From Rhodothermales bacterium (GTDB lineage Bacteria; Bacteroidota; Rhodothermia; Rhodothermales; VXPQ01): a DNA stretch of 64,000 nt. The notes beneath the pieces were generated by a model that was not told the DNA's origin, did no database searches, and saw only the letters and a list, made by a program, of their open reading frames with translations. This document shows positions 3,221-53,009 of this stretch, in pieces. The translations under genes were made by a program, and so were the position numbers. The stretch spans positions 2,782,406-2,846,405 of the forward strand of contig OZ252093.1 in NCBI GenBank assembly GCA_965248175.1, given 5' to 3'. Every line of letters begins with the position of its first letter. Positions within the stretch are counted from its first letter, which is position 1.

Positions 3221-3472
3221 CTAACCGACATGTTGACCATGCGGTTTATAATTTAATACTCTACTGATATATTTTCCTCGCGACTGCCCCGGCGCGGTAA
3301 ACGCCTGCCAAACTTGAGGCGGACACGCAGAATACCGCCATTCAACGCCATCGTGAAAGCGTACATAAATCGTCTCAGTTTCCGGGTCATAGGCCTCGGC
3401 AACGATCCGGCTGGAACCGGTAACAGGAATCCACTCAATCATCTGTGACCTCGTAAGTTTCGCGACATTCAA
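3221..3472 (-). CDS. KTSC-domain small protein
   Basis: 'IEWIPVTGSSRIVAEAYDPETETIYVRFHDGVEWRYSACPPQVWQAFTAPGQSRGKYISRVL' fits the KTSC pattern (S-S-x-I..YD...L.V.F..G..Y.Y..VP..V...). The start is either TTG 3472 (4-nt overlap with the HerA stop) or ATG 3442 (26-nt spacer). Confidence 0.7.
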   Translation of the reverse strand: MNVAKLTRSQMIEWIPVTGSSRIVAEAYDPETETIYVRFHDGVEWRYSACPPQVWQAFTAPGQSRGKYISRVLNYKPHGQHVG

Positions 3473-5232
3473 TCATCCGCAACCTCATAAGTTCCACGCC
3501 ATGCTGTCAGGGCGGGACCAACATCCGGTACTAGAGGTTCTTGACGCCAAGGGGCCAGAGATGGATCGTCGGCAAGTGGCTTCGGGTTGGGTCTATCAAA
3601 GAGTACCCGGGCAGGCAGGATCATAGATTCTCCGCTAACTACTCCCTCACCGGTACGTAGCGATGGCAGAACAGCGGCCAAACCTGCAATTGCATCCGGT
3701 AGCGCCGCTCGAATTGTATTTTGATCCTCAGAGTTCGAAAGGCGCAGGGCCACCAAGGTTCCGCACTGTGCCAGAGCGGTGTCCGGTAGCTCCGTAGGGC
3801 GCTGGGTGACGAGCAAGAGCCCGACACCGTATTTCCTTCCCTCTCTTGCAATTCTATTCGCAGAATCACGAGTCAACATGCTTGCGCTGTCACCAAGGTA
3901 TCGGTGAGCTTCTTCCAATACTACGAGAACAGGGCTGGGGCGCCCAATGCCCGGTCCTCCCAAATTGCAACGGAGCGATATCTCAAAAATCAGATTAAGA
4001 ACGACACCGATCGCGAGATCGGCAGCAGCAGATGGAACTCCGCTGAAATCAAGCACTGATATGGGCCGAACGCCACCAAGCCAATCCTGCATTACTTTGA
4101 CCAACGGATCATCACCTTGCGGCTCACCCTTGGGCTCCTGAAAAAACCGAAGCTGTGGATCAAGAAGGCCGAGACGGAACATATCCGGCATGGTCCCATA
4201 GGTACCGTGAAACGGCCCCTTGTGCGGAGGCTCACTGCCAGGACCATAAGGTTTAAACGTCGCTGACCGCAACGTGTTTGCATCACCGGCGTTGGTCAGA
4301 CAAACAGTTGTCGGGTCCGCCTTGCTTTCGAGGGTCTCGTTGTTTTTGAAATCAAGTTGATGCCAAACCGCCCGAATATCAAACGGTACTGGCGTGTCGG
4401 CTGTAACAGCTGTCGGATCAAGTTTGAGCCAATCGGCAGCCTCTACAAACTTGCGACGAGCAGCAGTCACAAGTTCGGTATAGCGTCCCACGAATGTCGC
4501 ACTGCCCGATGATCCAGAAAAAATGTGCACAATGTCAGCCGCCGGGAGCGCCCAGAACGGGACACGTAACTGATCTCCACCTGTGGCAAGAACGCTTTTG
4601 ACAGAAGCATTACCCTCCAATGCTTGTGCGTACTCACCGTGCGGATCGATAACCACGATATTTGCCGCTTGCCACCCCCCCTCTACGAAGCTCTGCAATA
4701 AAGAAGCGACAACGCTGGTCTTCCCAGAGCCCGTAGAGCCAACGATGGCTGCGTGACGGACGACGAAGCGCGAGATATCCACACAAACTGGAACTTCCTC
4801 GGTAGCAGCTAGACGGCCCAGTCGCAGATTTTGATTGTCGGGGTGCGGGAATACCGACCTAAGCTGACTTGGCGTTGCGAAGTGTACAGGATCATCAAGG
4901 CCAGGATATGAACCCACACCGCGCTGGAAACGCTCCGTGCCGCGATCAATCTCACCAAGTAACTGAACTTGTAGCCAGCGCTCATCGTGTTGAACCGACT
5001 CCGCTGGTTTGATTGGACCAGAAAGTTCAGCAATGCCGACAAGGGAAACCGTGGCGACGAGGTCAACAAGGCCCTGAGGAATTCGAACGAGTGAGCCGAT
5101 CTGACCCACAGGTTGAAGGTGACCACGATAAATTGGTGCTGTCCCTGCGAGGTCAGGATCAAGTGCCACTGTAACAGTAGCCCCTAGAACATGACGTACT
5201 CTCCCAATACACGTTGGATCGCGCTCAGTCAT
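3469..5232 (-). CDS. herA: HerA-like (DUF87) ATPase, the HerA component of a SIR2-HerA defence pair
   Basis: 587 aa. There is an N-terminal HAS-barrel-like segment, Walker A 'VGSTGSGKTS' and Walker B-like 'VLVVLEEAHRY'. The start ATG at 5232 overlaps the SIR2 stop by 8 nt (ATGACTGA). Confidence 0.85.
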   Translation of the reverse strand: MTERDPTCIGRVRHVLGATVTVALDPDLAGTAPIYRGHLQPVGQIGSLVRIPQGLVDLVATVSLVGIAELSGPIKPAESVQHDERWLQVQLLGEIDRGTERFQRGVGSYPGLDDPVHFATPSQLRSVFPHPDNQNLRLGRLAATEEVPVCVDISRFVVRHAAIVGSTGSGKTSVVASLLQSFVEGGWQAANIVVIDPHGEYAQALEGNASVKSVLATGGDQLRVPFWALPAADIVHIFSGSSGSATFVGRYTELVTAARRKFVEAADWLKLDPTAVTADTPVPFDIRAVWHQLDFKNNETLESKADPTTVCLTNAGDANTLRSATFKPYGPGSEPPHKGPFHGTYGTMPDMFRLGLLDPQLRFFQEPKGEPQGDDPLVKVMQDWLGGVRPISVLDFSGVPSAAADLAIGVVLNLIFEISLRCNLGGPGIGRPSPVLVVLEEAHRYLGDSASMLTRDSANRIAREGRKYGVGLLLVTQRPTELPDTALAQCGTLVALRLSNSEDQNTIRAALPDAIAGLAAVLPSLRTGEGVVSGESMILPARVLFDRPNPKPLADDPSLAPWRQEPLVPDVGPALTAWRGTYEVADD

Positions 5233-6412
5233 ATTCCTTTCTGTTCACTTCCGTCCGAGACTCCCCAATAGCGTCCCTGAGCAACTCCTTCAAAACACCG
5301 TCACCGCTTTGTTCACGTGTCGTGCTTCGAGCCAAATATCTGGCAAGATTACAGAAGTTTCGGAGGGCAAACTGTTCATTCTCCCAAATATCCAGTGGCG
5401 CATTGTCCGGTTTATCCCAATCCGCACGGACACCGCCAATAATTGCCTCACGACCAGAGACCACTTGGATGTTAGGGATGGTAACTGCACGGTCAGCCAA
5501 TATATCCGGAATCTCCGAAAAGCAGAAGGCTATAAACTCGGAACGCTCGCGGCGCACTGCAGCATTGAAAATTTGCTCATTGAGATGTTCGTCACCGAAC
5601 GAATATCCAGAGATCAGCATAAGCGTCTCTGGCTGATAGAGTGCCCTTCTCAATCGGTCCTGAAGTACGACAAAGGGGACACGCCGCGATTCCTCGTACT
5701 TTGCATCAGACGGATAAATGGCCGCCGCAAGACCTTCAGGAACCGGGTGGCCTAGTCGGACAATTTGCCGGTCTCCTTTCCAAGACCAGTTCACGGAGCC
5801 GTGCAGTTTCCAAAGCCTGACGAAAAACGCAGGAACCACTTCAGCATCCGGTCCTGGCAATCCCTCGACCAGTTCCGTATGAAATCTGGCTTCCAGAGAT
5901 CCTACAAAACCATCGAAGTAGGGCACACGCATTTCCTCAAGAGCAGTCTCTAACAAAAGGTCATAGTTTACCGTGAATAATTCGACAGGTAGATGGTAAT
6001 TGGCGCGTGCTGCCCAGACGGCCAAACACATTGCGGCAGTTGGATCCACACCATCAACGCCATCAACTTTCAGCGCCCTGACAATCGCCTGACAGACAGC
6101 GGCATCCAATTTCTCCGCATCCCTCGCCGTCAGGTCATTCACTGTTTCTTCGCCGGAGATAAGTGCCGAAATGCGACGGAGGCGGCTTAACGCCGCCTCG
6201 AGGTTTCGGCCCGTTAGTTGGCGCTGGAAGGCGGCATGTTCGTCTTCTTGGATATCTTCCAGAACATACTGCTCAAGCGCCTTCACATCAGGTAGGCCAC
6301 ACGCCTTCCCAACCCCGGCACCTAGGAACGCACATACGTGACGAGACCGAGTAGCGAGCTTAGTGCCAAGAGACGTGACAAAACTCAATGGGTTGTGATC
6401 TGGCATGTGCAC
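5225..6412 (-). CDS. SIR2-family (SIR2_2) NADase-like protein, the SIR2 component of a SIR2-HerA defence pair
   Basis: 395 aa with 'FLGAGVGKACGLP', 'FTVNYDLLLE' and 'KLHGSVNW', which are the hallmark SIR2_2 motifs. It lies directly upstream of, and overlaps, herA. The start is GTG 6412 or ATG 6406. Confidence 0.85.
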   Translation of the reverse strand: MHMPDHNPLSFVTSLGTKLATRSRHVCAFLGAGVGKACGLPDVKALEQYVLEDIQEDEHAAFQRQLTGRNLEAALSRLRRISALISGEETVNDLTARDAEKLDAAVCQAIVRALKVDGVDGVDPTAAMCLAVWAARANYHLPVELFTVNYDLLLETALEEMRVPYFDGFVGSLEARFHTELVEGLPGPDAEVVPAFFVRLWKLHGSVNWSWKGDRQIVRLGHPVPEGLAAAIYPSDAKYEESRRVPFVVLQDRLRRALYQPETLMLISGYSFGDEHLNEQIFNAAVRRERSEFIAFCFSEIPDILADRAVTIPNIQVVSGREAIIGGVRADWDKPDNAPLDIWENEQFALRNFCNLARYLARSTTREQSGDGVLKELLRDAIGESRTEVNRKEYD

Positions 6413-6600
6413 TCTGCTGGCAAGAAGCGCCGGCTCATTGGTTCCTTACTGAATACATGTCCACCCGGCGGAAAGTAACTCACCGAACGAACGCTAAAGA
6501 ACATGGGTCAGTTTCGCATCGGACGATTCCTAGAGACGGTTTGTCCTGATTGGACAGATTTTTGCAAACCATTTCTCCATTACTATCATGCGTCACATCC

Positions 6601-8322
6601 TTACAACCCGAACAGTTTGGTTGCTTGTTTAACCAGATTCTCGGTTCTGGTTTTTATCTGTTCGACACCCCAACTTTGAGAATTAGCCAAATCTTCATTT
6701 ATACTTAGGCCATTTTTATATCCAACCCATCGGCCTTGTGCATCAGTACGATCCCGCTTTTCCTCAAAGCCCTTGTTTCCAAGAGCACTATTGAATCCGG
6801 AAATGGTCAGATTTCCCAGTTTGTGGACATACGTCTGTTGAGCCTCCTTCGCCTTGTGCTCATCCCCATCAGCGATCATGGTCATCCATGGTTGAGGTAT
6901 GTTTTCACCCTGTGGAAAGATATGCTCAATGGTCCAGACAGACCTTCCCTTTCCCCCAACGGCCCATAGGTCAACCCAAGTTTCTTTGGTCATTTCTTGT
7001 TCAGCCAAGGCACATAGAACAAATCGGGTGACACCTGAATTTTCCACGTAAATTGGCCCTTCCAATTTGCTCTGGAATATATCATCAGATGCAGATACAG
7101 CCACGAGTTCCTCCTTAATAGCCTGCGTAACAGCTATTCCATGCAGGCTACTTATTTTATCTATAATCGTCATGAAAAGTCGAGTTAAATCCCGTGTAGG
7201 CGGCGTGTCTGTGAGATTACGACGGACAAAGAAACGAACCAGAAACGCAACCGTCGAGGCTAATTGCTTGTTGTCCAGTTGCAAATCTTCCTTACGGACA
7301 AGCAGGTAAAGCATCAGCAGATAGGATGGCGCTCCTTGGATGCGTGCGAGATTCTTGAGCGGTATCTCAAGTCCGTTGAGGGCATCGTCCTGATTGCGAG
7401 AGAGAATCAATGAGTACTTTTGACCAGCGATGCCGATTTTTGTCAGGCAATCCTTGGCGTCATCGTTAATAAGCTTCTCGTATATCTGAATCAGGTTGGA
7501 TCGGGTAGCCACGGGCACCTTATACAACGCTTTCAGTTCATCCTTAAAAGCGTTGTAGTATTGGCGGAAGAAACGCTCCTGAGTGCCATAGTCATCGCCT
7601 AAGTAGTTCAGCAAGCGGTTCCAGCGCTCATAATAGTGATCCACCTTGCCGGACTCAATGGATTCCAGTCTTGCCAAGAGCTTGTTCTTGATCAGATCAA
7701 CCGCCGTTAATGGCATACCTCTATTGTTCAGCGATTCGAACAGGGTGTAGGCATCGGCATGACTCGCCACCTCAATTTTGACCAAGCAAGCATAGCTGAC
7801 CTTTTCCAGAAATTCCAGGATGGTCCCAAGCCCGTCGCCCCCCTCATCTGTCATTTCATTGATACGGCCCTGGAAATATCGGTAGGCACGGAAAATTTTG
7901 CGGTTCCCCGCATAAGCCGGACGATCGCTCCCACTGATAATCCCCGTCTCAGCAAGAACGGCCCGGTAATCATTCTGGTTGTTGTTCTGAATCTGTGGTA
8001 TCAGGCGGATCTGTTTATCGCCTTTCTTCAAAATCAGCTTACGCTTTAAGTTGGTTTGCTCGACAAGCTGTTCAGCATCCAAATTGGATTCATGGCTTTT
8101 CAAGGCATGATAGACCGAAGCAAAAAGCAGCGAGAGCGTCATCAGTCGCTGCTGGCCATCGACTAGTTCCAGTTTCTGAACCAATAGCGCGTCTTCCGAC
8201 TGATTGATACAGATAATCGAACCGAGGAAATAGCCGGGGTCGTTATCAAGAACATCGTCAAACAGGCTTTCCCACTGATTCTTCCCCCAAGTGTATTCGC
8301 GCTGGTATCGAGGGATTGTATA
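6601..8322 (-). pseudogene. GmrSD-like type IV restriction endonuclease (DUF262 N-terminal plus DUF1524/His-Me C-terminal). This is the body of the gene, separated from its first 21 codons by an IS insertion.
   Basis: The frame stays open upstream of the track's TTG 8184 and reads '...YTIPRYQREYTWGKNQWESLFDDVLDNDPGYFLGSIICI...LVDGQQRL' (DUF262 signature). No ATG/GTG/TTG start precedes it before the in-frame TGA at 8391..8389, inside the IS. The C-terminal 'WTIEHIFPQ...HKLGNLTISGFNSALGNK' is DUF1524-like. Confidence 0.85.
8315..8322. repeat. Target-site duplication (left copy)
   Basis: ATTGTATA lies immediately outside the left IR and is identical to 10898..10905. Confidence 0.9.
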
Positions 8323-8345
8323 GGGAATTATATACGAAAGTAACC
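8323..8345. repeat. Terminal inverted repeat (left) of the IS1595-family transposon
   Basis: GGGAATTATATACGAAAGTAACC is the exact reverse complement of 10875..10897. Confidence 0.9.
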
Positions 8346-8354
8346 GCTTTCGGA

Positions 8355-8564
8355 TCAGAGCATATCCTCCAACGGCGGCGGTTTTTTGTCATCGGGCGAT
8401 ACCGCACCCCGATCCTTCTTTATCGGCGTTACGATGCACTTCGCCAGTATCTCTGGCGTCGTGTCGATCTTCAAAACGCGCGTCTCCGGGCGACCTCGCT
8501 TTTTCGATTCGGGTTTGGGCTTTTTCGGTTTCATGGTCTTCGCCTTAGGTCTGATATTGTTCAC
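8355..8564 (-). CDS. Small lysine/proline-rich basic protein with an AT-hook-like 'KKRGRPE' core (function unknown)
   Basis: 69 aa from GTG 8564 (GTGA overlap with the endonuclease stop), or 59 aa from ATG 8534. It ends 9 bp from the left IR. No recognisable fold. Coding status is supported mainly by the stop/start overlap. Confidence 0.45.
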   Translation of the reverse strand: MNNIRPKAKTMKPKKPKPESKKRGRPETRVLKIDTTPEILAKCIVTPIKKDRGAVSPDDKKPPPLEDML

Positions 8565-9160
8565 TTACCCCTTTGCCGTCGTTCTCTCACGATCTCTTTC
8601 ATCAGCGTAAACGGTTCACTGTAGAATGGTGGTTCTAAGGGCCACGAAACAGGAACACTTGTCGCCAATAGGTGCATCCTCTGGTAATCCGAATACTTCC
8701 GATGTTTGGAACGCGGCAGATGCTCATTTCTGATAAATCCAAAGTGCCATTTATGGTCAAACTCAAAGAGATTAATCGCCAGTATATCGAATTTTCCTGC
8801 CAGCAGGCACGTTGTCTGCAACGTGGTTCCGTTGGGCAGTGTAACAGATCGTCGGTCGCTCGCATCGACTTGGCATCGTCCGAAATAGTCGCCGTTGTTA
8901 GTTCTCACCGAACGGGTTTGCAACGACTTCACCTCGACAATGATCGGTTGGCCTTGGTATTCGAAACTGAAGTCTGCTGGCCGTGATCTGTCGTGATCGT
9001 CGTATCGAATTAGTTTGTGAATTCGGGCATCTGAAAATACGGTGCGCTGTAACTTGTACTCAGCCAAAAACCCAATCAGTATCCCTCGGATGCTTGGACG
9101 CTCTGCAAGTACAACGTTCAAGTCATCGTAGGAAATACCCCAGTCTTCCAGAATTCCCAT
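8561..9160 (-). CDS. Type II restriction endonuclease (PD-(D/E)xK fold), cargo of the IS
   Basis: 199 aa. 'PADFSFEYQGQPIIVEVKS' gives a D...E-V-K catalytic pattern. The start overlaps the methyltransferase stop (TAATG at 9162..9158). Confidence 0.65.
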   Translation of the reverse strand: MGILEDWGISYDDLNVVLAERPSIRGILIGFLAEYKLQRTVFSDARIHKLIRYDDHDRSRPADFSFEYQGQPIIVEVKSLQTRSVRTNNGDYFGRCQVDASDRRSVTLPNGTTLQTTCLLAGKFDILAINLFEFDHKWHFGFIRNEHLPRSKHRKYSDYQRMHLLATSVPVSWPLEPPFYSEPFTLMKEIVRERRQRGK

Positions 9161-9873
9161 TATGGACAGCGGCGTCGCGGACTTCGCCCGTTGGTTTTGA
9201 TGAATACGAGAAAGTAAGAATGATTTTTCCTGGCGTGTTCCTGTCGAAGGATCCGACTGACGGCGGGTTTATTGGTGCGGACTAATACGAACAAGTCTTT
9301 TGCGTAGAACCCTATCGACTCGTATTCATTGATCAACTCGACATGTGTGAGATTTTGCAGATTGGCACTTACTTCATCTTGACACTTGACAATGAACACG
9401 CCAAAATCGCGCAGAACTCTAAACGCCTCGGCACCAGCCTTGAAATACAGGTCCAATACAGCCGCGTGATACTTCGGCACATTATCCTCGATGGTCTTTC
9501 CGTTCGAGTAGATTTCCCTAAATGCAGAATAACTGCCGCTGCCTGCTAAATGAGACTGCTTTTTGCGATACAGCCCCTCCATGTATGGGGGATCAAGTAC
9601 CACACAGTCGATTGAGCCGTCGTCGTAAGGCAAATCTCGGCAATCCACCCCCGTCTTTATATCGGTCGCAAGCAAGTTGTAATCGTCTGCGTTGACATTC
9701 TTCCAGAATATCCCCTTGCCGTAGGTTACGTCGGCAATCGTTGAACCAACAGGTACGTGCAAATCGAAGATTTTAGGAAACAGCGCATCGTTGCAGCCTA
9801 AATGTGCACTACATATAATATCGCTGGTAGCGATACCATCTGGAGATTTTCTTTGTACAGCCACACCCATCAT
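9160..9873 (-). CDS. DNA methyltransferase (N6-adenine or N4-cytosine, DPPY type), cargo of the IS
   Basis: 237 aa. Motif I-like '[12 protein letters not shown]' is followed by motif IV '[10 protein letters not shown]'. The start ATG overlaps the transposase stop (ATGA at 9873..9870). Confidence 0.8.
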
Positions 9874-10802
9874 GCAATCAGGTCAGCATACCGGAGGCGT
9901 TTCTGATCCATGCCCCGGACTATTGCCGACATTTGGTCAAGAGTATCAAGTCCGCGAATGTTGTGCCGACCGGAGAACTCGTTGATGTACCGATGGAGAT
10001 GCTTGACGCTCACGTGGTGGTAAACACCCGTGATTCCCCGTTTCAACGTCGCCCAAAAACTCTCGATACCGTTCGTGTGGACTCGTCCACGAACGTACTC
10101 GCTGGCACTGTGTTTGACCGTCTCGTGGGCGTAGAAGTGTTTCAAGCTCTTGTATGCCTTATGGTCATCCGTGAAGACCGTTTCGCCATGCTGGACGCTC
10201 TCATGCACGAAGCCAGCGAGAGTTTCACCCGGTTCATAGCCAAGTGGACGCGCCTTGATCTTGCCGCCTCGCTCCCTGGCTCCCATGACGGTAGCCTTAC
10301 CCACCGTTCCACGTCCGAACGACCGCTTGTGCGCGTGTTTATTCCGTTTCTTGCCACCCACATACGTTTCGTCTACCTCGACGGTACCGACGAAAAGAGG
10401 GGCGTTCTCCACGAAAGCCTCGCGGACACGCTGGATCAGGTGCCACGCGGCTTTCTGCGTGATACCCAATTCCCGGCTGATCTTCATACTCGACACGCCT
10501 TTCAGGTTGGTCGTTGCCATATAGGTAACGATTGCCCATGCCTGAAAGCCCAGTTTGCTCGACTCCATTACCGTGCCCTTCTTGACGGAGAAGTGCTTCC
10601 GGCAATCCTTGCAACGCAGTGGCATGGTCGGGTGGGTACTGCGAACGGCCCGCATGCAACCGCAGTGGGGGCAGACAGGACCATCAGGCCAGCGTTGCTT
10701 TTCAAACCAGCGTTCGGCTGTATCGTTGTCGGGAAACATACGAAGAAGTTGAACAATGGTCAAGCCGGTTCTTTCGGAACGTCCGGGTGCGCGTTGTGCC
10801 AT
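9870..10802 (-). CDS. IS1595-family transposase (N-terminal zinc ribbon plus DDE domain)
   Basis: 310 aa. Motifs are 'CPHCG...[22 protein letters not shown]', '[10 protein letters not shown]', '[10 protein letters not shown]' and '[14 protein letters not shown]'. It is homologous along its length to the second copy at 51962..52933. Confidence 0.9.
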
Positions 10803-10874
10803 TTTCTTGCCTGGTTGCTTTCTGATTACGGTTACTATAATACCACATAATAATCAAAAAGTCAAGTGAATAAT

Positions 10875-10897
10875 GGTTACTTTCGTATATAATTCCC
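10875..10897. repeat. Terminal inverted repeat (right) of the IS1595-family transposon
   Basis: GGTTACTTTCGTATATAATTCCC is the exact reverse complement of 8323..8345. Confidence 0.9.
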
Positions 10898-10905
10898 ATT
10901 GTATA
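10898..10905. repeat. Target-site duplication (right copy)
   Basis: ATTGTATA lies immediately outside the right IR. Confidence 0.9.
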
Positions 10906-10968
10906 TACCACATTCGCTTCGATGTCGAAGAGCTGAGAGATTGGATAGTTATTTACGGATTTAATCAT
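10898..10968 (-). pseudogene. Detached 5' fragment (start codon plus 23 codons) of the GmrSD-like gene
   Basis: ATG 10968..10966 reads 'MIKSVNNYPISQLFDIEANVVYT' and runs straight into the IS right end. It joins in frame to '...IPRYQREYTW' at 8314 once the IS and one TSD copy are removed (71 + 1714 nt = 1785 = 3 x 595). Confidence 0.85.
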
Positions 10969-11169
10969 ATAACACCTCAAGAGTGATATTTCTATAGTTT
11001 GCGACGGAATGCTTCTTTTTTCCCTGCCATGATGTCGATGAAATCGGTGTTCCACTAACCATCGAAAATGGGCGTATCCGCTAAAACTGTGTAAGCGAAC
11101 ATACCTAATATCTGAAGCGACCCCCATATCCTGCAAGACACCTCATTTAGGCAGGGTATCAAGCTCCCC

Positions 11170-51956: not shown

Positions 51957-53009
51957 GGGAATTACCCGGAAAGGTTGACGACGCCCTGTTCGTTGCCTGC
52001 CACGAGCGTTCTGTATGGCAGGAGTTTCCCTGCCATTGCGTCTACTACACGGCCCATTTGCTCCAGCGTATCGAGATTTCTTATGCCTTGGCGACCTGCG
52101 AAGTCCGCCACGTAGCGGTGAAGGTGCTTGACGCTCATCTTGTGATAAACGCCCTTGTGCGCCCGCTTCAGCGTAGCCCAGAAGGATTCGATGCCGTTCG
52201 TGTGCGCCTGTCCGCGCACATACTCGGCTGCGCTATGTTTCACCGTTTCGAGATCGTAGATATATCGCAAGCCGCTATAAGCCTTGCTGTCGTCGGTATA
52301 AACCGTAGCGCCGAACGCCGCACGGTCAAGCACGAAGTTTTGCAGGGTTTCGCTTGTCGTATCCTCTACGACCTCTGCCTTGATCTTGCCCGTGGCCCGG
52401 TCCTTCACGCCAACGATGGCCGTCTTGCCAACCGGCCCGCGTCCGGCGTGGAGTTTCCTCGATGCGTGCTTGTTCGCTTCCCTGCCGCCCACGTAGGTTT
52501 CGTCTACCTCGACAGGCCCGCCGAACAGGTTGTCGTCGTTCTCTTCGAATGCCTTGCGGATGCGCTGGAGCAGATGCCAGGCCGTATACTGACCGATACC
52601 TATATCCCGATGCAGTTTCATGCTGGATATGCCCTTCAGGTTCGTCATATGCAGGTAAATGGCGTAAGCCCATTTGCGAAGCGGTAATTTCGACGCCTGC
52701 ATAACGGTGCCGACCTTGACGGAAAAGTAGGAGCGGCAGTCGGTGCACCAGTAAGGCATCTTTGCATGAGACGCTTCGCACGTCCTTGTACTCTTGCAGC
52801 GCGGGCAATGGCGACCATCCGGCCAGATACGCGCCTCGAACCATTTGCGGGCCGCTTCCTCGTCAGGAAACATGTCGGCCAGTTGCATCAGGGTTATGCC
52901 GTTGCGGTACGCTTTTCCAGGTGCTTTATACATGACCTGCTCCGTTTGTTCTAAATGATTGTAAGTTATGAACTTAAAGGGAAAATGTCAACCTTTGTCT
53001 GTAATTCCC
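51957..53009 (-). mobile_element. IS1595-family insertion sequence (simple, 1,053 bp)
   Basis: The IRs are GGGAATTACCCGGAAAGGTTGAC (51957..51979) and the reverse complement of GTCAACCTTTGTCTGTAATTCCC (52987..53009), matching at 19 of 23 positions. They are flanked by the 7-bp direct repeat AAACGAA (51950..51956 and 53010..53016). Confidence 0.85.
51962..52933 (-). CDS. IS1595-family transposase
   Basis: 323 aa. Motifs are 'CPRCKS...WCTDCRSYFSVKVGTVMQASKL', '[10 protein letters not shown]', 'VYTDDSKAY' and '[14 protein letters not shown]'. Confidence 0.9.
   Translation of the reverse strand: MYKAPGKAYRNGITLMQLADMFPDEEAARKWFEARIWPDGRHCPRCKSTRTCEASHAKMPYWCTDCRSYFSVKVGTVMQASKLPLRKWAYAIYLHMTNLKGISSMKLHRDIGIGQYTAWHLLQRIRKAFEENDDNLFGGPVEVDETYVGGREANKHASRKLHAGRGPVGKTAIVGVKDRATGKIKAEVVEDTTSETLQNFVLDRAAFGATVYTDDSKAYSGLRYIYDLETVKHSAAEYVRGQAHTNGIESFWATLKRAHKGVYHKMSVKHLHRYVADFAGRQGIRNLDTLEQMGRVVDAMAGKLLPYRTLVAGNEQGVVNLSG

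What the first reader, a model, noticed from the sequence alone, without database searches (positions are those of the whole stretch)
8315..10905. A 2.6-kb IS1595-family transposon carries a complete, translationally coupled type II R-M operon as cargo
Seen directly: perfect 23-bp terminal inverted repeats (GGGAATTATATACGAAAGTAACC at 8323..8345 and its reverse complement at 10875..10897) are flanked by an exact 8-bp duplication (ATTGTATA). The element holds four same-strand ORFs chained by overlapping stop and start codons. These are transposase stop / methylase start (ATGA at 9873..9870), methylase stop / endonuclease start (TAATG at 9162..9158) and endonuclease stop / small-ORF start (GTGA at 8564..8561). 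There is therefore no room for a separate R-M promoter, and the R-M pair appears to be expressed as an extension of the transposase message. The simple IS1595 copy at 51957..53009 has related termini (GGGAATTA....AAAG.T.AC), which independently supports the assigned ends. From established knowledge, IS1595-family elements usually make 8-bp duplications, and most are about 1 kb with a single ORF. A copy that mobilises a whole R-M system behind a single IS transposase is unusual. It would give the IS an addiction module and give the R-M system a vehicle.
Basis: partly seen in the sequence, partly recalled or inferred. Interest (0 to 1): 0.82.

Follow-up and report, generated by a model that had tools for sequence, protein, structure and literature searches.

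The report
IS1595 transposon carrying a restriction-modification operon
A 2.6-kb single-transposase insertion sequence that carries a DNA methylase and restriction nuclease pair has jumped into a bacterial defence gene, and its close relatives carry other restriction systems in the same slot; this type of element is already known, but the swappable cargo is a useful detail.

Summary
Perfect 23-bp inverted repeats (8323-8345, 10875-10897) and an exact 8-bp duplication (ATTGTATA) bound four overlapping minus-strand genes. Removing the element and one duplicate restores a 594-aa GmrSD-like defence gene, so this is a clean, probably recent, transposition.

- **Genes.** In order: an IS1595 transposase, a DPPY amino-methyltransferase, a PD-(D/E)XK nuclease and a small basic protein (S).
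- **Restriction-modification (R-M) pair.** The methylase and nuclease are neighbours in 80 of 81 genome loci from many phyla. I read them as a type II R-M pair. Its specificity is unknown.
- **Other copies.** IR-bounded copies with the same cargo occur in three unrelated genomes, and one has a perfect 8-bp duplication. Relics with a truncated transposase gene keep the R-M pair.
- **S is backbone.** S is not cargo: a cargo-free 1.2-kb relative also has it. The layout is IRL-tnp-[cargo]-S-IRR.
- **Cargo exchange.** A transposase 94% identical carries an unrelated BglII-family R-M system. Relatives at 72-79% carry TdeIII-type or EcoRI-methylase/HNH modules, and an element with matching ends carries a Panacea antitoxin module.
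- **Weak point.** The "no room for a promoter" argument is invalid. Co-transcription is plausible but unproven.

Passenger-carrying IS1595 elements (tIS) and IR-bounded R-M units are already described, so this is a new member of a known kind. Interest is moderate.

The parts
8315..8322 (.). Target-site duplication, copy 1 (ATTGTATA)
   Evidence: Identical to 10898-10905. It is part of the codons Y-T-I of the restored GmrSD-like ORF.
8323..8345 (.). Terminal inverted repeat at the S-proximal end (IRR)
   Evidence: Perfect 23-bp reverse complement of 10875-10897. IRR-like ends (TATAATYCC motif) lie about 200-400 bp downstream of R in L003, L008, L011, L012, L016 and L034.
8355..8564 (-). S: small basic backbone protein with core KRGRPETRVLKIDTTPEILAKCIVTPIKK. 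The GTG start overlaps the R stop codon; an alternative ATG lies at 8534.
   Evidence: Also present after tnp in the cargo-free IS of L083 and after unrelated cargo in L084, L088 and L093. There are 11 homologous clusters, all 41-67 aa. Purifying selection: 7 synonymous against 2 non-synonymous codon differences versus L088. The start overlaps the upstream stop codon in L008, L011, L084 and L088.
8561..9160 (-). R: 199-aa PD-(D/E)XK-fold nuclease, the putative type II restriction endonuclease
   Evidence: No Pfam or NCBIfam hit. The AlphaFold model has pLDDT 93.9. Foldseek matches I-Ssp6803I (E 5e-5), Hjc resolvases, R.SwaI and the Eco15I N-terminal domain. D63 and K78 are invariant and E76 is nearly so. 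A homologue is named 'restriction endonuclease' by NCBI, and two homologues carry an N-terminal HTH_3 domain.
9160..9873 (-). M: 237-aa DNA amino-methyltransferase (DPPY at residues 94-97; D-x-T-x-G-x-G at 48-54)
   Evidence: PF01555 N6_N4_Mtase at 28.4 bits against a 26.7-bit cut-off. PADLOC MTase_II. Invariant motifs in 47 homologues. The fold matches class I SAM methyltransferases including Trm11. Adjacent to an R homologue in 80 of 81 loci.
9870..10802 (-). tnp: 310-aa IS1595-family transposase (Zn ribbon plus DDE domain; D144, D212/213, E247, K254 by reading)
   Evidence: Pfam DDE_Tnp_IS1595 at 1.6e-38 and Zn_ribbon_IS1595 at 9e-11; NCBIfam transpos_IS1595 at 1.9e-50. It is 94% identical to the transposase of the BglII-type tIS in L088.
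8539..9869 (-). Exchangeable cargo cassette (M, R and the first codons of S), bounded by comparison with the nearest backbone
   Evidence: DNA homology to L088 (89.8%) stops at the tnp stop codon (window 9870) and resumes at about 8538 inside S. The sequence between has no match. GC is 47.5% for M and 48.2% for R, against 55.9% for tnp and 58.6% for the window.
10837..10865 (-). Sigma-70-like promoter candidate for tnp (TTGACT, 17 nt, TATTAT, with TG), followed by a second AGTAACC motif
   Evidence: Consensus scan gives 10 of 12 matches. The CTTGACTTT...TATTAT...AGTAACCGTAATCA block is conserved upstream of tnp in L084, L087, L088 and L090. Function is inferred, not shown.
10875..10897 (.). 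Terminal inverted repeat at the tnp-proximal end (IRL)
   Evidence: Near-identical IRLs occur in L083, L085, L087, L088, L092 and L008.
10898..10905 (.). Target-site duplication, copy 2 (ATTGTATA)
6601..8322 (-). C-terminal 571 codons of the disrupted target gene (GmrSD-like, DUF262/DUF1524)
   Evidence: The restored ORF hits GmrSD_N at 3e-37 and GmrSD_C at 5e-16. It also hits PADLOC Orf5, HEC-06 and mREase_IV.
10898..10968 (-). N-terminal 23 codons of the same disrupted gene (MIKSVNNYPISQLFDIEANVVYT)
   Evidence: In-frame fusion after in-silico excision.

Best explanation
The element is a transporter insertion sequence (tIS) of the IS1595 family, in the subgroup with GGGnATTAT ends. Its layout is IRL, promoter, tnp, cargo, S, IRR. 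One DDE transposase recognises the 23-bp ends and moves the whole 2,575-bp unit, making an 8-bp duplication. Here it landed in, and inactivated, a GmrSD-like nuclease gene in a defence island.

The cargo is a two-gene type II restriction-modification operon: a DPPY amino-methyltransferase followed by a PD-(D/E)XK endonuclease. It sits exactly between the tnp stop codon and the small conserved backbone gene S. All four genes are chained by 1- or 4-nt stop/start overlaps. The most likely expression route is therefore one polycistronic message from the conserved promoter inside IRL, with M translated before R. This last part is inferred.

The R-M pair probably benefits the element in two ways, both inferred. 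It would penalise loss of the element (post-segregational killing), and it would restrict foreign DNA. The element in turn gives the R-M pair mobility.

In this IS lineage the slot between tnp and S is a cargo site whose contents have been exchanged repeatedly. I infer that this happened by recombination within the conserved tnp and S/IRR flanks.
For: **Shown: the unit transposed as a whole**
- Perfect IRs, an exact 8-bp TSD and restoration of the GmrSD-like ORF on excision.
- Transposase family assignment.

**Shown: the cargo is a methylase and a nuclease that travel together**
- Methyltransferase family hit and conserved motifs.
- Nuclease fold and conserved D...ExK residues.
- M and R are linked in 80 of 81 loci, collinear in close relatives and convergent in distant ones.

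**Shown: independent copies of the same unit**
- L011: perfect TSD GTCACGAT, and excision restores a 638-aa OLD-family nuclease.
- L008: 7 of 8 TSD positions match.
- L012: perfect 24-bp IRs.

**Shown: S belongs to the backbone**
- It follows tnp in the cargo-free IS of L083 and follows unrelated cargo in other relatives.

**Shown: cargo exchange**
- A transposase 94% identical carries an N6_N4 methylase plus a BglII-family nuclease (L088/L089).
- A 74% relative carries an SPPY methylase plus a TdeIII-family nuclease, with perfect TSD CTTCGTTT (L093).
- Relatives at 74% and 72% carry an EcoRI-like methylase plus a GmrSD_N protein, which also has an HNH domain in L084; the L087 contig ends inside that gene (L084, L087).
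- An element with matching ends carries a SocA/Panacea module, with perfect TSD AATGGAAG (L092).
- The window-type R-M also sits behind transposases that are only about 54% identical.

**Shown: compact operon layout across the family**
- The first cargo gene overlaps or abuts the tnp stop codon in the window, L008, L084, L087, L088, L090 and L093.
- The promoter-like block upstream of tnp is conserved.
Against: - No transcript or activity data exist for any step.
- The Pfam hit for M is only just above threshold, and its structural model is mediocre (pLDDT 70).
- R has no sequence match to any characterised restriction enzyme, and no recognition site could be inferred.
- Relic loci L001, L002, L003, L004 and L016 keep uninterrupted M and R reading frames although tnp is 5'-truncated, and L002 and L003 show no IRL. 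This suggests M-R can be expressed without the tnp promoter.
- The window's tnp 3' end holds no sigma-70-like site, but a weak one lies inside M upstream of R (9247 to 9220).
- The host's promoter type is unknown.
- L012 has no recognisable TSD, and in L011 the methylase reads DPPC instead of DPPY.
Confidence: 0.8

Rival explanations
1. Same element, different expression. M and R are driven mainly by their own promoter embedded in the 3' part of tnp, and possibly one for R inside M. Expression of the R-M pair would then be uncoupled from the tightly repressed transposase message, and the overlaps would only reflect compaction.
For: - Relic loci retain the last 30-180 codons of tnp immediately upstream of uninterrupted M and R reading frames (L001, L002, L003, L004, L016).
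- A weak sigma-70-like site lies inside M, about 60 nt upstream of R.
- From established knowledge, internal promoters inside the upstream gene are known for R-M operons such as EcoRI.
Against: - No sigma-70-like site was found in the window's tnp 3' end.
- The first cargo gene overlaps or abuts the tnp stop codon whatever the cargo is. That is what translational coupling to tnp predicts.
- The relics may simply be young.
Confidence: 0.3
2. The methylase and nuclease pair is not a classical restriction-modification system. It could be an orphan regulatory methylase with an unrelated nuclease, or a toxin-antitoxin-like or other defence pair.
For: - R has no Pfam, NCBIfam, PADLOC or PDB sequence hit.
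- Its best fold match is a homing endonuclease, and Holliday-junction resolvases follow.
- The M hit is marginal.
- The same slot holds a Panacea antitoxin module in L092.
Against: - Linkage with the methylase is near-universal in both collinear and convergent arrangements across many phyla.
- The catalytic D...ExK residues are conserved.
- Some homologues carry an N-terminal helix-turn-helix domain, reminiscent of R-M controller proteins.
- Sister elements carry recognised BglII-family and TdeIII-family restriction enzymes in the same position.
Confidence: 0.1
3. The cargo is not mobilised by the IS. An ordinary IS inserted next to a resident chromosomal R-M operon, and the distal inverted repeat is a solo end or a coincidence.
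For: Free-standing M-R operons without any IS trace exist, for example L005, L007 and L010.
Against: - The perfect IRs and the TSD bracket all four genes, and excising exactly that span restores the target ORF.
- The same bracketing recurs in L008, L011 and L012.
- The IR sequence occurs nowhere else in the window.
Confidence: 0.02

Closest known systems
Transporter IS (tIS) of the IS1595 family, ISNwi1-like subgroup (Siguier, Gagnevin and Chandler 2009, Res Microbiol 160:232; definition quoted in the TnCentral preprint)
   Same: - A single DDE_Tnp_IS1595 transposase with an N-terminal zinc ribbon.
- Short terminal IRs beginning GGGnATTAT.
- An 8-bp duplication.
- Passenger genes inside the IRs, downstream of tnp.
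- A size within the range I recall for passenger-carrying ISNwi1-group members (1.75-4.75 kb; from memory of ISfinder, not checked here).
   Different: - I could not read the 2009 paper, so I do not know whether complete R-M operons, the small S gene or cargo exchange were described there.
- Furuta et al. 2010 cite it among reports of R-M systems or solitary M genes flanked by IS elements.
Transposon-like R-M units bounded by inverted repeats with 8-bp duplications (Furuta, Abe and Kobayashi 2010, NAR 38:2428, PMC2853133)
   Same: - The N. gonorrhoeae unit has perfect 26-bp IRs, an 8-bp TSD and three genes, including an R-M homologue and a transposase-like gene (COG3677).
- The X. oryzae type II R-M has 65-bp IRs and an 8-bp TSD.
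- The concept is the same: an R-M system as the payload of a minimal IR-bounded element.
   Different: - Those units carry a type IIG or S-subunit system, or no transposase at all.
- Their authors could not say what moved them.
- Here the transposase is intact and assigned to a family, the insertion is verified by a restored ORF, and a lineage with exchangeable cargo is visible.
IS-linked or composite-transposon movement of R-M systems (Takahashi et al. 2011, PLoS One, PMC3031569)
   Same: An R-M system relocated through insertion-sequence activity.
   Different: That case involves plasmid integration or cointegration mediated by resident IS copies. It is not an R-M operon built into a single IS between its own ends.
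Defence-system cargo of Tn7-like transposons (the mBio 2021 cargo-gene study, PMC8649781)
   Same: Transposons carrying R-M and other defence modules as variable cargo, and landing in or forming defence islands.
   Different: Tn7-like elements are large, have several transposition genes and choose specific targets. This is a one-transposase element of 2.6 kb.

Membership tests
IS1595 family insertion sequence or tIS | Transposase with a DDE_Tnp_IS1595 (ISXO2-like) catalytic domain and an N-terminal zinc ribbon | tested here: met
   PF12762 at 1.6e-38 (132.6 bits), PF12760 at 9e-11 and NF033547 at 1.9e-50.
IS1595 family insertion sequence or tIS | Short terminal inverted repeats. The subgroup consensus ggnnatTAT for ISNwi1 is from my memory of ISfinder. 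| tested here: met
   Perfect 23-bp IRs starting GGGAATTAT. The consensus itself was not checked against ISfinder.
IS1595 family insertion sequence or tIS | 8-bp target-site duplication | tested here: met
   ATTGTATA on both sides, and excision restores the ORF. Perfect 8-bp TSDs also occur in L011, L092 and L093.
IS1595 family insertion sequence or tIS | tIS criterion: passenger genes unrelated to transposition lie inside the IRs | tested here: met
   M and R lie between tnp and S inside the IRs. The definition is quoted.
IS1595 family insertion sequence or tIS | Transposition activity of the unit | not testable with these tools
   Indirect evidence only: intact tnp, perfect ends, the restored target gene, and a related tIS found in two contexts (L085 and L086; L088 and L089).
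Type II restriction-modification system | Separate DNA methyltransferase with a SAM-binding motif and a catalytic (D/S)PPY motif | tested here: met
   PF01555 above the gathering score (28.4 against 26.7 bits). DPPY and D-x-T-x-G-x-G are invariant in 47 homologues. The fold matches class I SAM methyltransferases.
Type II restriction-modification system | Separate endonuclease with a nuclease catalytic core | tested here: met
   PD-(D/E)XK fold (model pLDDT 93.9; Foldseek). D63, E76 and K78 are conserved.
Type II restriction-modification system | Conserved genetic linkage of M and R | tested here: met
   80 of 81 loci, in collinear and convergent arrangements.
Type II restriction-modification system | Sequence-specific cleavage that is blocked by the cognate methylation, and a defined recognition site | not testable with these tools
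   No REBASE access and no methylome data. Palindrome depletion in the window was uninformative.
Composite (compound) transposon | Cargo flanked by two complete IS copies | tested here: not met
   There is only one tnp, and the IR sequence occurs exactly twice, at the two ends.

The most novel reading that the evidence does not exclude
This IS1595 sub-lineage (transposases at least about 72% identical, ends GGGRATTATATACNAAAGTAACC) may be a dedicated shuttle for addiction and defence cassettes.

- **Fixed slot.** The slot lies between the tnp stop codon and a previously unnoticed backbone gene S, a roughly 45-aa basic protein with an AT-hook-like RGRP core.
- **Interchangeable cargo.** It accepts at least four unrelated R-M pairs, and an element with matching ends carries a Panacea antitoxin module. 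In each resolved methylase-led case the first cargo gene overlaps or abuts the tnp stop codon.
- **Possible role of S.** S, or the transposase, might bind the repeated AGTAACC motif that overlaps the promoter. That would tie expression of the restriction system to transposase autoregulation.
- **Possible benefit of the insertion site.** Landing in modification-dependent or other nuclease defence genes (GmrSD-like here, OLD-family in L011) might be selected because it removes a host system that conflicts with the incoming methylase.
Probability: 0.35. Interest if true: 0.7.

Novelty: new member of a known kind. Interest (0 to 1): 0.55.

Why it matters
- **A very small vehicle.** One transposase gene and two 23-bp ends can move a complete restriction-modification system between distant phyla. 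The hosts named in the records span Alpha- and Gammaproteobacteria, Dehalococcoidia, Acidobacteria and others.
- **A test case for selfish R-M systems.** Relics in which the transposase decays while the R-M pair stays uninterrupted fit the idea that such cargo resists loss.
- **Exchangeable cargo.** A nearly identical backbone carrying an unrelated R-M system points to modular exchange at a defined slot. That could be used to discover new restriction enzymes. The 199-aa nuclease family here matches none of the Pfam, NCBIfam, PADLOC or PDB-sequence libraries searched.
- **Annotation.** Gene callers would label these genes as separate chromosomal genes and miss the element and its small S gene.

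Tried and rejected
- **Sequence searches for R and S.** Pfam, NCBIfam, PADLOC and PDB sequence searches found nothing for either.
- **Source contig.** The window's genome is not among the species representatives scanned.
- **Recognition site.** Palindrome under-representation in the 64-kb window gave only generic signals (CTAG 0.30, CTCGAG 0.17, AGCT 0.50). Nothing is attributable to this system.
- **IR pattern scans.** No hits in viral contigs and one in JGI metagenomes (L092).
- **Rfam.** No RNA family in 8200-11000.
- **IRs in relic loci.** L001, L002, L003, L004 and L016 have no left end. L003, L016 and L034 keep the right end.
- **L084 left end.** The only candidate pair (19 of 22 matches) falls inside the cargo and was not accepted.
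- **L094 and L095.** Transposases of 70% and 69% identity; their ends could not be found, so their cargo is unresolved.
- **Siguier et al. 2009 and the 2014 FEMS review.** Neither is held in the library. I therefore could not check what passenger genes were already reported for ISNwi1-type tIS.
- **Failed and faulty scripts.** One script returned nothing and was repeated. In one search the ORF picker took the wrong frame for the L008 methylase, so I use the tblastn value (75%) instead.

Full report
**1.

The sequence between 8315 and 10905 is as described.
- The repeat finder returns a perfect 23-nt inverted pair at 8323-8345 and 10875-10897. With up to three mismatches allowed, these are the only two occurrences in 64 kb, against none in 100 shuffles.
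- ATTGTATA flanks the pair on both sides.
- Four minus-strand ORFs fill the interval: 9870-10802, 9160-9873, 8561-9160 and 8355-8564.

The strongest check is functional. Removing 8323-10905 joins the flanks into one 594-aa reading frame. That frame carries GmrSD_N (3e-37) and GmrSD_C (5e-16) domains and matches PADLOC models Orf5, HEC-06 and mREase_IV. The element therefore inserted as one piece into a defence gene. The perfect ends and duplication suggest the insertion is recent.

**2. What the genes are**

- **tnp (310 aa).** An IS1595-family transposase: DDE_Tnp_IS1595 at 1.6e-38, Zn_ribbon_IS1595 at 9e-11 and NCBIfam transpos_IS1595 at 1.9e-50.
- **M (237 aa).** It passes Pfam N6_N4_Mtase narrowly (28.4 against 26.7 bits). 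In 47 homologues the DPPY motif and an upstream D-x-T-x-G-x-G motif are invariant. Its model (pLDDT 70) matches class I SAM methyltransferases, including the DPPY-bearing Trm11.
- **R (199 aa).** It has no sequence-family hit. Its model is confident (pLDDT 93.9). Foldseek places it among PD-(D/E)XK nucleases: I-Ssp6803I at E 5e-5, then Hjc resolvases, R.SwaI and the Eco15I N-terminal domain. D63 and K78 are invariant and E76 is nearly so, which gives the D...ExK signature.
- **M-R linkage.** In 82 related loci, 81 of them outside the window's own genome, an M homologue lies next to the R homologue in 80. Closer relatives are collinear (M then R). Distant ones (R 45-53% identical) are convergent.
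- **Other pointers.** Two R homologues carry an N-terminal HTH_3 domain, and one is named "restriction endonuclease" by NCBI.

I conclude that this is a type II R-M pair of unknown specificity. That rests on fold, motifs and linkage, not on activity.

**3. The unit recurs elsewhere**

Three unrelated genomes hold IR-bounded tnp-M-R-S units.
- **L008** (a Gammaproteobacteria MAG): ends GGGGATTATATACGAAAGTCACC, with 7 of 8 flank positions duplicated.
- **L012** (Dehalococcoidia): perfect 24-bp IRs and no clear duplication.
- **L011** (Paracoccaceae): perfect 8-bp duplication GTCACGAT. Excising the L011 copy restores a 638-aa OLD-family ATPase-nuclease (AAA_15 plus OLD-like TOPRIM). This is a second verified whole-unit insertion, again into a defence-type gene.

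Five further loci (L001, L002, L003, L004, L016) keep uninterrupted M and R reading frames (single alignment segments) behind only the last 30-180 codons of tnp. L003, L016 and L034 also keep the right-hand end. These look like decayed copies in which the R-M pair outlived the transposase.

**4. The fourth ORF is backbone, not cargo**

The small ORF after R is conserved at the protein level: WIN ...KRGRPETRVLKIDTTPEILAKCIVTPIKK; L011 ...GRRPTRVIKLDATPEEAARAMF.
- An exhaustive profile-free search finds 11 clusters, all 41-67 aa.
- The cargo-free 1.23-kb IS in L083 has a transposase 81% identical and ends GGGGATTATATACCAAAGTAACC. It encodes the same peptide directly after tnp.
- Codon comparison shows purifying selection: 7 synonymous against 2 non-synonymous differences versus L088, and 8 against 2 versus L083.
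- In L008, L011, L084 and L088 its ATG overlaps the upstream stop codon (ATGA).

The layout is therefore IRL-tnp-[cargo]-S-IRR. The function of S is unknown. Its RGRP core resembles an AT-hook, and the ends are AT-rich, so I guess at a DNA-binding accessory or regulatory role.

**5. The slot exchanges cargo**

I looked up the nearest transposases to see what follows them.

| Locus | Transposase identity to window | What follows tnp |
|---|---|---|
| L088/L089 | 94% aa, 89.8% nt | 301-aa N6_N4 methylase, BglII-family endonuclease (PF09195, 6e-35), then S |
| L083 | 81% | no cargo; S only |
| L090/L091 | 79% | overlapping N6_N4 methylase; contig ends |
| L085/L086 | 75% | 2.4 kb of unknown genes; seen in two different contexts |
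| L093 | 74% | SPPY methylase, TdeIII-family endonuclease, S; perfect duplication CTTCGTTT |
| L084, L087 | 74%, 72% | EcoRI-like methylase, then a GmrSD_N protein (with an HNH domain in L084; L087 contig ends within it) |
| L092 | found by IR pattern | SocA/Panacea antitoxin-domain gene with a partner, S-like ORF; perfect duplication AATGGAAG |

- DNA homology between the window and L088 stops at the tnp stop codon and resumes inside S.
- Conversely, the window's M-R type sits behind transposases only about 54% identical in L008, L011 and L012.
- M and R are 47.5% and 48.2% GC, against 55.9% for tnp and 58.6% for the window.

Cargo and backbone therefore have different histories. The mechanism of exchange is not shown. 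Recombination in the conserved flanks is my inference.

**6. Expression**

That does not follow, because promoters often lie inside upstream coding sequence.

Evidence for a single message:
- A sigma-70-like site (TTGACT, 17 nt, TATTAT, with TG) lies just inside IRL.
- That site is conserved, together with a second AGTAACC motif, in five relatives.
- In the window and six relatives with methylase-led cargo, the first cargo gene overlaps or abuts the tnp stop codon.

Evidence for an additional internal promoter:
- The relics keep uninterrupted M and R reading frames although tnp is truncated.
- A weak site lies inside M upstream of R.

I rate co-transcription as likely and exclusive dependence on the tnp promoter as unproven.

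**7. Comparison with what is known**

[quoted passage not shown] 2009, which I could not read).
- Furuta et al. 2010 described R-M units bounded by inverted repeats with 8-bp duplications. One, in N. gonorrhoeae, includes a transposase-like gene. They cite the IS1595 paper among reports of IS-flanked R-M or M genes.
- Six full-text searches on these topics found no description of an IS1595 lineage with an exchangeable R-M slot or of the S gene.

The element passes every testable membership feature for an IS1595 tIS and for a type II R-M system. Activity could not be tested. It fails the test for a composite transposon.

**8. Verdict**

- The element is a new member of a known kind.
- The added value lies in the lineage-level pattern (fixed slot, interchangeable R-M and toxin-antitoxin-like cargo, conserved S, insertions in defence genes). 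This pattern is only sampled here, with about ten backbones, and needs a census.
- Interest is 0.55.

Noticed in passing
window 3469-8322 and 10898-10968: The element sits in a defence island. HerA (3469-5232, PADLOC 1e-127) and SIR2 (5225-6412, 2e-105) form an overlapping pair directly downstream of the disrupted GmrSD-like gene. The island is lower in GC (about 51%) than the rest of the window (about 59-60%).
   Followed up: partly
window 51957-53009: A second, cargo-free IS1595-family element of 1,053 bp. Its transposase is 55% identical to the tIS transposase, and its ends match at 19 of 23 positions. The flanks share 7 bp (AAACGAA). It has no S gene, because tnp runs into the end repeat.
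   Followed up: partly
L011 3046-6814: A copy of the same tnp-M-R-S unit in a Paracoccaceae MAG, inserted into an OLD-family nuclease gene. It holds a nested IS630-like DDE_3 gene between tnp and M. Its methylase reads DPPC instead of DPPY while R looks intact.
   Followed up: partly
L088 123-3845 and L089 1-3112: A 3.7-kb sister tIS with a BglII-family R-M system. It has an extra 0.6 kb (a 76-aa ORF) between IRL and the promoter, and a 141-aa ORF after S. L088's left flank and L089's right flank share TTCATTTG, but L088's own right flank differs. This suggests two copies or a rearrangement.
   Followed up: partly
L084 4001-7213 and L087 235-2652: Sister elements pair an EcoRI-like adenine methylase with a GmrSD_N (DUF262) protein, which also carries an HNH domain in L084. 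This is an unusual partner for a methylase, because that domain family is mostly known from modification-dependent enzymes. L084 lies on a circular 100-kb contig that also carries a phage-type integrase gene.
   Followed up: no
L092 7012-9554: A 2.54-kb element with the same ends and a perfect duplication (AATGGAAG). It carries a SocA/Panacea antitoxin-domain gene with a partner and an S-like ORF (ATPEAVAKKILITPPKKAGEWKY). Its tnp is frameshifted. From the look of the disrupted ORF, which I did not test, it may have inserted into another IS1595-type transposase gene.
   Followed up: partly
L085 3918-7317 and L086 3918-7315: The same 3.4-kb tIS with 2.4 kb of uncharacterised cargo sits in two contexts. 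One is between chromosome-type biosynthetic genes. The other is on a circular 37-kb contig that carries a terminase-like gene.
   Followed up: no
P0115 and P0116 (homologues of the 199-aa nuclease): Two R homologues (268 and 291 aa) carry an N-terminal HTH_3/HTH_31 domain, as if a controller-type regulator were fused to the nuclease.
   Followed up: no
L026-L082 (distant M-R loci): In homologues with R 45-53% identical, the gene order switches from collinear M then R to convergent R against M. None of these has an adjacent IS1595 transposase.
   Followed up: no
record titles of L003-L082: Several hosts of this R-M family carry names that I recognise as sponge-associated lineages (Poribacteria, Porifericomitales, Porisulfidus). 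That reading is from my own knowledge, and the habitat was not checked. The window's own genome (a 2.98-Mb contig in NCBI and ENA) could not be named.
   Followed up: no
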